Position numbers: made by a program. Positions 20,901 through 23,146 of a stretch of DNA of 64,000 nt are shown here, one piece after another. This DNA comes from Zootoca vivipara (Eukaryota): assembly GCF_963506605.1 (NCBI RefSeq), contig NC_083288.1:43462001-43526000 (forward strand), read 5' to 3'. Numbering within the stretch: position 1 is the first letter of the stretch; every line of letters begins with the position of its first letter.

Positions 20901-23146
20901 TGGCTCCAGTGTCTGCAAGAAATATTCTCCACCTTCATCATCTTCAACGATAAGCCCAACCCATTTCCATTTGAAGTACAGTAGTAACTTGATAATTCCC
21001 TCATACTGAAGGGCTTCATTGGGAATCATACGGTAAAAGGAAGGGAACATTTTTTTATTATACACAGGTGGTTCAAATGAACCGTATGAAATCTGGGTGG
21101 ATGGAGAGAAATCCAGACATTTTAGAGTGGAAAGAGGAGTTCAGAATCATTACTTTTATTTGTTGCTTTTTTCTTATAGTGCAAACATGCCTTTTTTAAA
21201 GAAGAATCACCATCCTTTGAAAAACACACACTCACAATCTTAGTTGTCAAGTTGTTGTACTCTAGATATTTATTCTTATCACATTTGGAGCAAGTCTCCA
21301 TTACAAGTACTAAATACACAGTCTTTGCAACCATGGTGCCTGAACGAGCAGAGGGAAGGCAGTGGGGCTCTCATCTCTGGGAAGACTATGCGGACTGCCA
21401 GAAGTTCGTAGATAGTGATGATGATGAAGAGATTTGGTTTAATATTCCTTTTACTGGCAATGTGAAACTAAAAGGGATGACTGTGATGGGAGAGCATGAC
21501 AACACACACCCAAAGGAAATGAGAATCTTTATGAGTAGGGCCGGCTCTAGGTAGAATCCCGGTGGTGCGGGGTGCCAGGGCGCCGGGCCAGTGGGGGGTG
21601 CTGCACGGCGAAGCCGCACGGAAGCCATACTGCGTGCTGTGAGGGCGGGGGCACCGGAGCGATCTCCGTCCCTCAGCGCCAGGGCGCCCGACCTGCTCGA
21701 GACTGCCCTGTTTAAGAGCATTCCTCACATGTCTTTTGGTGATACTGCCAGAGAACCAGATCAGTCTTTGCAACCTCATTCACATCTCTGGATACCACAT
21801 TATACCCTCCCAATCAATTCCACATGTTTCAGCTGCTTTTCATTTACCCCCATGGAACCACATCATTCTTATGAATTATCAAAGGTCTACTGGAAAGAGG
21901 AAGCAAGTGAATTAGGCAATGGGGCACTTTAGGAGAAATCTCCACTGCCCACAATCTACAATCCTACCTGTGGAATCTTGTAAAGACCTAAGATGTCTGC
22001 CATGGATCTGGAAGTTTCAGAGCTCAGGCCTCCGATGATTCCTATTACATTTTTCTGAATGCCACATTTGTAGTTAGGTATAAAGTGATAAGATTTAAAG
22101 AGCAGGTCCAGGGTGGTCCGATAAGTCATCCTTGAATCAGAGTAGCTGTCATAGATGTGGAACCCAAGAGTGACATTGGGCAACATCTTGGGATTCTCGT
22201 TGATCTCATCAACAGCAAACACCAAGGCCAGGATGTGCTGGTAGAACTTGGTCAAAACACTGCAAATAAAGTGACGTGCTATTTCATGAGTGTACAAAAA
22301 TATTCTACCACAGTTTTCATCTACTCAGGATCTAAGAAATTCAACTGCTTGACCATATGGACTTTGTACAAGATGCAAATCTCATCTTTAGCTTAGTCTG
22401 TTGGATAGAAAGACATGTGTGGCCACCTTTTATCACTCTACAGTTTTAACCAAAACACAGTCTGTATTATAGGAGTGTGTTATAGATTTTTGAACTTAGC
22501 CTCTTTCTAAGTGTTCCTGAACCTGGAAAGACTTCATCTGGTGAAAGATGGCCTTCAAATGCATCAGCGTAAGTTGAACTTAATACTAAAGCAATGTTGG
22601 ATATAGTCACAGTGACACAGAGTTTAGGAAAATAAGCTATGCTTATTGCACAGAAACATGCTTGGTAGAAAAGATCCTCATTCTTAGGAACTAAGGCGAA
22701 GAAAGCAACTAGCCATGCTTGCTCTTGCATCTCAGGAGGAGACACATGGAAGATGTCAAGTCAAGCATGAAGAAGAAGGAAGTAGCAAATGACATCAGCA
22801 ACCCTAAGAGTATCAGTCTAGTGCTCAAAGGAAATTCAGCACAGGTTATTCTTCTCTGTATCTACTCTTTCCCATGCAGACATATCAACCTTCAGTGCAG
22901 GTTGATTTATATCCCCATCTATTCTTCATGCTCCATAAAATCTCTGTGAATCTTTAGCATCTAGCATTTTGAAACCTAGGGATAAATGAACGTAAAAGGA
23001 ACAGGAGAAAAAAATATACTATGTCCATCAAGCTCAGTATTATCTGACTAGTGACAACTCTCTGCATGCAAATGTATATCTGAATGTGAGGATATGTAGA
23101 TGCAGTACAAAGCTACCCCATGCACAGGAAAGACTCTGTGTCTACG

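What the first reader, a model, noticed from the sequence alone, without database searches (positions are those of the whole stretch)
21319..21775. Tailless internal PITHD1 retrocopy with a perfect 14-bp TSD in a V2R intron
Seen: about 250 bp of PITHD1-like coding sequence (CLNE...REPDQ) lies antisense in intron 2 of gene 2. It is bounded by CAGTCTTTGCAACC at 21319-21332 and 21762-21775. It has no poly(A) and no 3'UTR, and the last codon (CAG, Gln) overlaps the TSD. A hAT MITE later split it. Inference: reverse transcription was primed inside the mRNA by microhomology with the target, as expected for RTE/BovB- or CR1/L2-type machinery or for internal L1 priming. Such mRNA-derived tailless retrocopies are rarely noted in reptiles.
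Basis: partly seen in the sequence, partly recalled or inferred. Interest (0 to 1): 0.7.

Follow-up and report, generated by a model that had tools for sequence, protein, structure and literature searches.

The report
Truncated PITHD1 retrocopy in V2R intron
A dead, tail-less piece of spliced PITHD1 messenger RNA was copied back into an intron of a lizard-type vomeronasal receptor gene and later hit by a small DNA transposon; it is a tidy but ordinary example of a known kind of genomic debris.

Summary
CAGTCTTTGCAACC occurs only at 21319-21332 and 21762-21775. Between the copies, on the + strand, lie 245 nt matching residues 42-125 of squamate PITHD1. They carry a 7-nt frameshifting deletion and are split by a 175-bp MITE with its own 8-bp duplication. 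No poly(A) or 3'UTR is present. The host is intron 2 of a minus-strand V2R gene.

New here: annotated exon-skipping isoforms, including two lizards, place PITHD1 exon junctions at about 66|67, 81|82 and 107|108. The fragment crosses all three without intron sequence, so it derives from spliced RNA. A paralogous V2R intron lacks the insert.

The nick site (CA/CAGTCT) fits neither the L1/tailless consensus nor the squamate Bov-B signature, so the machinery is undecided. I favour L1-type internal priming. Capture of a cDNA patch at a staggered break is the main rival.

Tailless retropseudogenes are already described, including in green anole (PMC5322556). This is a new member of a known kind, of low interest.

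The parts
21319..21332 (+). 5' copy of the 14-bp target-site duplication, CAGTCTTTGCAACC
   Evidence: one of only 2 matches in the window; 0 of 100 shuffles gave 2 or more.
21333..21336 (+). ATGG, four bases at the 5' junction of unassigned origin (filler, or diverged codons 40-41 of the parent)
   Evidence: the PITHD1 match starts at C42 (TGC, 21337). Squamate proteins have E or Q at residue 41.
21337..21404 (+). PITHD1 codons 42-66, the 3' part of exon 1. It carries a 7-nt deletion: 2 nt at 21376-21377 stand in place of codons 55-57, which shifts the frame.
21405..21449 (+). PITHD1 codons 67-81, the short exon 2. The exon 1|2 junction is at 21404|21405, give or take 1-2 nt.
   Evidence: Scyliorhinus isoform X2 lacks residues 46-66, and the Phrynosoma model has a different N-terminus joined just before FVESD. 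PMC12805893 (passages): skipping of human exon 2 shifts the frame.
21450..21527 (+). PITHD1 codons 82-107, the whole 78-nt exon 3, contiguous with both neighbours
   Evidence: 5 of the 17 aligned proteins (Podarcis, Phodopus, Xenopus tropicalis, Lithobates and Pristiophorus X2 isoforms) lack exactly residues 82-107.
21528..21535 (+). TTTATGAG, the first 8 nt of exon 4 (codons 108-110) and the left copy of the MITE's 8-bp target duplication
   Evidence: It is 7 of 8 identical to 21711-21718.
21536..21710 (.). 175-bp GC-rich MITE with imperfect terminal inverted repeats (TAGGGCCGGCTCTAGG against the reverse complement of its end, 11 of 16). It is hAT-like by its 8-bp duplication.
   Evidence: A second copy lies at 7267-7446 (-), 69% identical, with flanks TTCAGCAA / TTCAGTGA.
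21711..21718 (+). TTTAAGAG, the right copy of the MITE target duplication. It keeps the parental F-K-S reading.
21719..21761 (+). The rest of PITHD1 codon 110 through codon 124, inside exon 4. The copy ends in mid-exon.
   Evidence: 5 of 17 isoforms lack residues 108-142, which defines exon 4.
21762..21775 (+). 3' copy of the 14-bp target-site duplication. Its first three bases, CAG, also read as PITHD1 codon 125 (Gln).
   Evidence: Homology to the paralogous intron resumes at 21776.
21093..21967 (-). Host intron 2 of a V2R gene, 875 nt, or 432 nt without the 443-nt insertion. CT at 21093-21094 is the acceptor AG and AC at 21966-21967 is the donor GT on the minus strand.
   Evidence: The paralogous intron at 44836-45247 is 412 nt.

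Best explanation
A spliced PITHD1 mRNA was reverse-transcribed from an internal position in exon 4 (codon 125) back to a point in exon 1 (codon 42). The cDNA was joined into a 14-nt staggered break in intron 2 of a V2R gene, antisense to the host. This left a doubly truncated, tail-less retro-fragment flanked by a perfect 14-bp target-site duplication.

The most likely engine is target-primed reverse transcription by a LINE acting in trans. I favour an L1-type element priming internally, with the nicked bottom strand (...AAAGACTG-3') annealing to at least the CAG of codon 125. The fragment never had a function. It then decayed and was split by a hAT-like MITE.

Shown: the anatomy, the PITHD1 identity, the absence of introns across three inferred exon junctions, and the absence of the insert in a paralogous intron. 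Inferred: TPRT, internal priming and the L1 identity of the enzyme.
For: (1) The 14-bp perfect repeat is far beyond chance. Its length is typical of LINE staggered cuts: 'typically no more than 20 bp' (PMC13295347, introduction passage).

(2) Spliced origin. In one search, 5 of 17 aligned PITHD1 proteins lack exactly residues 82-107 and 5 of 17 lack exactly 108-142. The lizards Podarcis muralis X2 and Sphaerodactylus townsendi X2 are among them. These give phase-0 junctions at 81|82, 107|108 and 142|143. One shark isoform and one lizard model mark a junction at about 66|67. In the window these points (21404|05, 21449|50, 21527|28) are contiguous coding sequence.

(3) Only residues 42-125 are present anywhere in the window. 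tblastn with 3 squamate PITHD1 proteins gave no other hit better than E 0.56.

(4) The paralogous V2R intron 2 at 44836-45247 is 412 nt, against 432 nt for this intron without the insert. Its homology to the right flank (63 of 79 identical; score 85 against a shuffled maximum of 40) starts at 21776, directly after the repeat. It has 19 nt where this gene has repeat + insert + repeat.

(5) Decay consistent with a dead copy: a frameshift, and 15 substitutions in 81 aligned residues against the snake protein. Three of these (E69D, L76I, L77W) fall in columns invariant in all 17 proteins.

(6) An L1-clade LINE with long open frames lies in the same window at 1-3347 (-). Its EN-RT frame of 448 aa matches L1 ORF2p at E 4e-59, and RVT_1 is found in the next frame.

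(7) L1 is the machinery tied to tailless retropseudogenes, which were also detected in green anole (PMC5322556, passages).
Against: The first-strand nick site reads CA/CAGTCT on the top strand. This does not match L1's TT/AAAA or the tailless consensus TT/WAAAAWWX(0-17) (PMC5322556, section 15).

The demonstrated overlap with the RNA is only 2-3 nt. Lizards with Met at residue 126 (Podarcis, Tiliqua, Phrynosoma) would allow no further ungapped match.

The left-flank homology to the paralog is weak: 33 of 46 identical, score 31, below the shuffled maximum of 35. The 'empty site' therefore rests mainly on the right flank, the collinearity and the intron lengths.

The exon junctions are inferred from annotated isoforms of other species, not from this genome's PITHD1 gene.

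The L1 copy in the window is not intact. Its EN and RT lie in different frames, and its 3' end lies outside the window.
Confidence: 0.6

Rival explanations
1. A cDNA (or RNA-templated) patch was captured during repair of a chromosomal break. This resembles endonuclease-independent retrotransposition or a 'class 2' templated sequence insertion. A fragment of reverse-transcribed, spliced PITHD1 RNA was ligated into a break by end joining. The 14-bp duplication would come from fill-in of a staggered break, such as two nearby nicks on opposite strands.
For: There is no poly(A). The copy is truncated at both ends in mid-exon. The cleavage site is non-consensus. The overlap at one junction is short (2-3 nt), and four unassigned bases (ATGG) sit at the other. 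These are the features listed for class 2 insertions, whose templates include cDNAs with several spliced exons (PMC5110952, passages).
Against: Class 2 insertions and ENi events are described as lacking target-site duplications (PMC5110952, passages). Here a perfect 14-bp duplication is present, which is the criterion that paper uses for LINE-mediated class 1.
Confidence: 0.2
2. The mRNA was mobilised in trans by a non-L1 ('stringent') LINE of squamates, such as Bov-B/RTE, CR1 or L2. Reverse transcription would start where the nicked target happened to pair with the mRNA.
For: These LINEs do not need poly(A), and lizards carry L1, L2, CR1, RTE and R4 (PMC5322556, introduction passage). A second LINE-type ORF with an endonuclease domain lies at 62869-63999 (+). 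It has no L1 ORF2p match at E <= 1e-10, so non-L1 LINEs with open frames exist nearby. The nick site is not L1-like.
Against: The squamate Bov-B signature has TSDs starting with A, preceded by T, with a T-run about 10 nt upstream (PMC13295347, passages). It is absent here: the TSD starts with C, is preceded by A, and the upstream sequence is GTACTAAATACA. No 3'-tail or microsatellite of such a LINE is attached. In the papers I read, tailless forms tracked L1 and not RTE or CR1 (PMC5322556, section 19 passage).
Confidence: 0.12
3. This is a DNA-level secondary copy. A piece of a pre-existing PITHD1 processed pseudogene elsewhere in the genome was duplicated or captured into this intron. The intron-less state would then be inherited rather than made here.
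For: It cannot be excluded, because no genome of this species was available to search. Both ends fall in mid-exon, as any random DNA fragment's ends would.
Against: A clean 14-bp duplication with an insert of only about 246 nt is not what segmental duplication or known capture mechanisms leave. No other PITHD1-like sequence is in the window. The flanks are ordinary intron sequence shared with a paralog.
Confidence: 0.05

Closest known systems
Tailless retropseudogenes (Schmitz et al. 2004, recalled; Noll et al. 2015, PMC5322556, passages and section 15 read)
   Same: RNA-derived, 3'-truncated without an oligo(A) tail and flanked by a target-site duplication. The 3' end coincides with bases shared between target and source RNA. 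mRNA-derived and 5'/3'-truncated forms are reported in human, and tailless forms were detected in green anole.
   Different: The target site here (CA/CAGTCT...) lacks the A-rich consensus TT/WAAAAWW. The shared bases shown number only 2-3. The anole data described in the passages I read concern 5S rRNA and U2, not mRNA.
Classical L1-mediated processed pseudogene / class 1 templated insertion (PMC5110952, passages)
   Same: A spliced cDNA of a housekeeping-type gene, 5'-truncated, with a target-site duplication of typical length (14 bp).
   Different: It has no poly(A), no polyadenylation signal, no 3'UTR and no TTTT/A-type site.
Class 2 templated sequence insertions / endonuclease-independent L1 insertions (PMC5110952, passages; Morrish 2002 as cited there)
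   Same: A tail-less fragment of spliced cDNA with a non-consensus site, a short junctional overlap and possible untemplated bases.
   Different: Those lack target-site duplications. This one has a perfect 14-bp duplication.
hAT-superfamily MITEs (for the interrupting element)
   Same: An 8-bp target duplication, short imperfect terminal inverted repeats starting YAGGG, a size of 175 bp, and more than one copy in the window.
   Different: No transposase relative was identified. The superfamily assignment rests on the duplication length. The fit to the hAT target pattern nTnnnnAn is recalled, not tested.

Membership tests
PITH domain / PITHD1 (Pfam PF06201) | Profile match above Pfam's gathering score | tested here: met
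   48.7 bits against a cut-off of 23.7, E 9e-13; 67 of 82 aligned residues are identical to snake PITHD1.
Processed (RNA-derived) pseudogene | Crosses exon-exon junctions of the parent without intron sequence | tested here: met
   The test is indirect. Junctions at about 66|67, 81|82 and 107|108 were inferred from exon-skipping isoforms and a human exon-2 skipping report (PMC12805893). All three are contiguous in the window. The species' own gene was not available.
Processed (RNA-derived) pseudogene | 3' poly(A) tract after the 3'UTR | tested here: not met
   codon 125 abuts the duplication, and there is no A-run and no UTR.
Tailless retropseudogene | 3'-truncated RNA copy without an A-tail, flanked by a target-site duplication | tested here: met
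Tailless retropseudogene | Target-site consensus TT/WAAAAWWX(0-17) | tested here: not met
   the site reads ATACA/CAGTCTTTGCAACC. This is a consensus, not an absolute rule. The nearest L1-like motif (CT/AAATA) lies 7 nt upstream of the duplication.
Tailless retropseudogene | Target site complementary to the source RNA at the truncation point | tested here: inconclusive
   CAG is shared (2-3 nt). Further overlap depends on the parent's codons 126-130, which were not available. Protein residue 126 is M, T or I in squamates.
Bov-B/RTE-mediated insertion | Tn-TA signature at the duplication (PMC13295347) | tested here: not met
   the TSD starts with C, is preceded by A, and has no T-run about 10 nt upstream.
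Class 2 templated insertion / ENi event | Absence of a target-site duplication | tested here: not met
   a perfect 14-bp duplication is present.
hAT-type MITE | 8-bp target duplication and terminal inverted repeats | tested here: met
   TTTATGAG / TTTAAGAG (7 of 8) and TIRs 11 of 16; the second copy has flanks 6 of 8 and TIRs 10 of 16.
hAT-type MITE | Derivation from, or shared ends with, an autonomous hAT element | not testable with these tools
   No repeat library and no genome of the species were at hand.

The most novel reading that the evidence does not exclude
A cellular mRNA was copied into the germline by a LINE that does not use poly(A) (Bov-B/RTE, CR1 or L2), or by RNA-templated repair of a staggered break. 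In either case reverse transcription was primed purely by chance pairing between a nicked intron and the middle of an exon. If many such TSD-flanked, tail-less, spliced fragments exist in squamates, they would be an overlooked route of RNA-to-DNA flow. They would also give a read-out of which lizard LINEs act in trans.
Probability: 0.15. Interest if true: 0.5.

Novelty: new member of a known kind. Interest (0 to 1): 0.2.

Why it matters
On its own this is one dead 245-nt fragment in an intron, with no sign of function. Its value is as a clean, datable specimen. It has a perfect duplication, both ends in mid-exon, and a later nested MITE. It shows tail-less, internally primed copying of an ordinary mRNA in a squamate genome in which several LINE clades compete. 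A genome-wide collection of such cases could show which lizard LINE acts on cellular RNAs, which is still only predicted (PMC5322556). It is also a usable presence/absence marker for dating this V2R paralog.

Tried and rejected
- Intron remnant. The MITE's 8-bp duplication starts exactly at the inferred exon 3|4 junction (21528), so I considered that the 175-bp element is retained intron. I rejected this. It does not begin with GT or end with AG. It has terminal inverted repeats and a 7-of-8 flanking duplication that restores the coding sequence. A second copy sits elsewhere in the window.
- Rest of the retrocopy nearby. tblastn with 3 squamate PITHD1 proteins found nothing outside 21337-21764 better than E 0.56.
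- Known RNA family in 20800-22400: 0 Rfam matches at E <= 0.1.
- Empty site in the other paralogs. The gene B and gene D introns were too diverged to align usefully. Only gene C was informative. A first global alignment scattered gene C's bases across the insert, and a mis-set semi-global run was discarded in favour of local alignments with shuffles.
- Literature on PITHD1 exon structure. Of 13 papers holding 'PITHD1' and 'exons', I read passages of one (PMC12805893). It gives only that skipping of human exon 2 shifts the frame.
- The parent gene or mRNA nucleotides, and orthologous introns in related lizards, could not be obtained.

Full report
**What is in the sequence**

The 14-mer CAGTCTTTGCAACC occurs exactly twice in the 64-kb window, at 21319-21332 and 21762-21775. 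None of 100 dinucleotide-preserving shuffles gave two matches. The bases beside the two copies differ, so the repeat is exactly 14 nt.

Between the copies the + strand reads as PITH-domain protein. Pfam PF06201 scores E 9e-13, 48.7 bits, against a cut-off of 23.7. The first protein search returned the 211-aa PITHD1 of the snake Bothriechis nubestris (P0002). Three pieces of the window align to it:

| Window | PITHD1 residues | Identical |
|---|---|---|
| 21337-21375 | 42-54 | 11 of 13 |
| 21378-21530 | 58-108 | 40 of 51 |
| 21711-21764 | 108-125 | 16 of 18 |

tblastn with three squamate PITHD1 proteins gives the same coordinates. It finds no other part of the protein anywhere in the window; the next best hit has E 0.56.

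Further details of the fragment:
- Two bases (21376-21377) stand where codons 55-57 should be. This is a 7-nt deletion that shifts the frame.
- Four bases, ATGG (21333-21336), between the left repeat and codon 42 cannot be assigned.
- After codon 124 (GAT) comes the right repeat. Its first three bases, CAG, read as the conserved Gln125.
- There is no A-run and no 3'UTR.

The PITHD1 pieces were searched one by one. The joined step was left out.

**The nested element**

Positions 21536-21710 (175 bp, GC-rich) interrupt the fragment. The element is flanked by TTTATGAG (21528-21535) and TTTAAGAG (21711-21718), which are 7 of 8 identical. Taking out the element and one flank restores ...MRIF-K-SIPHMSF....

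Its ends are imperfect inverted repeats, 11 of 16, read. A diverged second copy (69% identity) lies at 7267-7446 on the minus strand. That copy has similar ends and 6-of-8 flanking repeats.

An 8-bp duplication with YAGGG... ends fits a hAT-type MITE. The superfamily label rests on that alone. The MITE clearly entered after the PITHD1 fragment did.

**The host**

On the minus strand lie these V2R exons:
- a 7tm_3 exon at 15155-16105 (E 2e-84);
- an ANF_receptor exon ending at 21092;
- an ANF_receptor exon starting at 21968;
- a signal-peptide-like first exon in the ORF 23408-23656 (judged by eye).

The intron 21093-21967 has a minus-strand GT donor and AG acceptor. It is therefore intron 2 of a V2R gene, and the PITHD1 fragment is antisense to it. 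The window holds three further V2R genes.

**Is it derived from spliced RNA?**

A second protein search listed many named PITHD1 records, including annotated exon-skipping isoforms. I aligned 17 named, non-human proteins:
- Five lack exactly residues 82-107: the X2 isoforms of Podarcis muralis, Phodopus, Xenopus tropicalis, Lithobates and Pristiophorus.
- Five lack exactly residues 108-142: Sphaerodactylus townsendi, Carettochelys, Muntiacus and Chamaea X2, and Chlamydotis isoform 2.
- In mammals and sharks the residue after the gap is Tyr108 rather than Phe. This shows the junctions are in phase 0 at 81|82, 107|108 and 142|143.
- A shark isoform lacking residues 46-66, and a Phrynosoma model with a different N-terminus joined just before FVESD, place another junction at about 66|67.
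- Skipping of human exon 2 shifts the frame (PMC12805893, passages). That fits a short exon of about 44-46 nt between 66|67 and 81|82, and it means the first boundary is good only to 1-2 nt.

These positions are conserved from sharks to mammals and are seen in two lizards. Mapped on the window they fall at 21404|05, 21449|50 and 21527|28. At each point the coding sequence runs straight through.

The fragment thus holds the end of exon 1, all of exons 2 and 3, and the first half of exon 4. The evidence is indirect, because it comes from other species' annotations.

**Is it an insertion?**

The paralogous V2R gene on the + strand has its intron 2 at 44836-45247, which is 412 nt. This gene's intron is 875 nt, or 432 nt without the 443-nt block.

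Local alignments with shuffles gave three results:
- The right flank 21776-21853 matches 44994-44922 at 63 of 79, score 85 against a shuffled maximum of 40. The match starts at the base after the repeat.
- The insert itself has no counterpart: best score 21, shuffled maximum 27.
- The left flank aligns collinearly but weakly, at 33 of 46 with score 31, below the shuffled maximum of 35.

Between the two flank matches the paralog has 19 nt where this gene has repeat + insert + repeat. This supports an insertion made after the two V2R genes diverged. A true orthologous empty site was not available.

**How it most likely arose**

The sense strand of the insert is the + strand. The first-strand primer was therefore the bottom strand ending ...GGTTGCAAAGACTG-3', nicked at the left edge of the duplication (top strand ATACA/CAGTCT). 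The second nick lay 14 nt away.

The cDNA starts at codon 125 in mid-exon and stops at codon 42 in mid-exon. This is the anatomy of a 'tailless retropseudogene'. Such copies are made by TPRT with internal priming, are flanked by duplications, and have a target complementary to the RNA at the truncation point (PMC5322556, section 15 and passages). That paper reports:
- mRNA-derived forms;
- thousands of doubly truncated forms in human;
- tailless forms in the green anole;
- a link between the phenomenon and L1.

An L1-clade LINE with long open frames lies in this very window at 1-3347 on the minus strand. One 448-aa frame matches L1 ORF2p at E 4e-59, and RVT_1 continues in another frame. That copy is not intact, and its 3' end is off the window.

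**What does not fit**

The nick site has none of the A-richness of L1's TT/AAAA or of the tailless consensus TT/WAAAAWW. The nearest such motif (CT/AAATA) is 7 nt upstream and is not duplicated.

The site also lacks the squamate Bov-B 'Tn-TA' signature (PMC13295347, passages).

The overlap with the RNA is shown for only the 2-3 bases of CAG. By my own estimate, chance would give that about once in 16 to 64 junctions. Squamates have Met, Thr or Ile at residue 126. With Met no further ungapped match to TCT is possible. With Thr up to 7 of 8 bases could match. The parent's nucleotides are needed to settle this.

The lack of a tail, the odd site, the short overlap and the four unassigned bases are also the hallmarks of cDNA patches captured at breaks. 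These are class 2 templated insertions or endonuclease-independent events, whose templates include spliced cDNAs (PMC5110952, passages). Those events, however, are defined as lacking a duplication.

My estimates for the four explanations are:

| Explanation | Confidence |
|---|---|
| LINE-type TPRT with internal priming, most likely L1 | 0.6 |
| Break-repair capture of a cDNA patch | 0.2 |
| Non-L1 LINE (Bov-B/RTE, CR1 or L2) | 0.12 |
| DNA-level copy of an older pseudogene | 0.05 |

**State of the copy**

It is dead. It has a frameshift. It shows 15 substitutions in 81 aligned residues against the snake protein, and three of them fall in columns invariant across all 17 proteins (E69D, L76I, L77W). 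The MITE splits it. No Rfam family matches the region. Nothing suggests a function or an effect on the host gene, whose flanking exons are open.

**Novelty**

Retrocopies are known in Anolis: 404 in PMC3136929 (passages). Tailless forms are known in anole (PMC5322556). This is a new member of a known kind. It is neat because of the perfect duplication and the nested MITE, and it is atypical only in its target site. It would become interesting only as one of many, if a genome-wide set revealed which lizard LINE copies cellular mRNAs.

**Limits**

- No genome or transcript of the species, or of any other squamate, could be searched.
- The supplementary tables of PMC5322556 were not opened.
- In one search the human-named hit and the unnamed hits that might be human were neither fetched nor used.
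- The assembly gap at 29410-29551 was left as it is.

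Noticed in passing
window 1-3347 (-): An L1-clade LINE runs off the window start. A 448-aa frame (713-2059) matches L1 ORF2p EN-RT at E 4e-59. RVT_1 continues in a different frame (1-726). An upstream 330-aa coiled-coil ORF (2355-3347) had no Pfam family above its cut-off. The element looks young but is not intact here.
   Followed up: partly
window 62869-63999 (+): A second LINE-type ORF (377 aa, running off the window end) has an Exo_endo_phos endonuclease domain but no PDB L1 ORF2p match at E <= 1e-10. 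It is probably a non-L1 clade. The clade was not determined.
   Followed up: partly
window 21527|21528: The MITE's 8-bp target duplication begins exactly at the inferred PITHD1 exon 3|4 junction. I take this as coincidence: the element has TIRs, its own duplication and a second copy, and it has no GT...AG ends. It is still unexplained.
   Followed up: yes
window 15155-23656 (-), 25744-33281 (-), 44800-52008 (+), 56940-58049 (+): Four V2R-type genes or gene parts (7tm_3 and ANF_receptor exons). Two are on the minus strand and two on the plus strand, so the middle pair diverge head to head. The intron 2 sequences of genes A and C are about 80% identical in the alignable part.
   Followed up: partly
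window 30681-31529 (+): A reverse-transcriptase fragment (RVT_1, E 9e-11) lies just below the ANF_receptor exon of the second V2R gene, presumably a LINE remnant in its intron.
   Followed up: no
window 7267-7446 (-): A second, diverged copy (69% identity) of the same MITE family, flanked by TTCAGCAA / TTCAGTGA.
   Followed up: partly
window 45070-45120; 32650-32700; 23100-23240: Microsatellites in V2R introns: (CAGA)n then (CA)n in intron 2 of gene C, (ATT)n in intron 2 of gene B, and a long (ATT)n run in intron 1 of gene A.
   Followed up: no
window 29410-29551: A run of 142 N (assembly gap or masked stretch) inside the second V2R gene's span.
   Followed up: no
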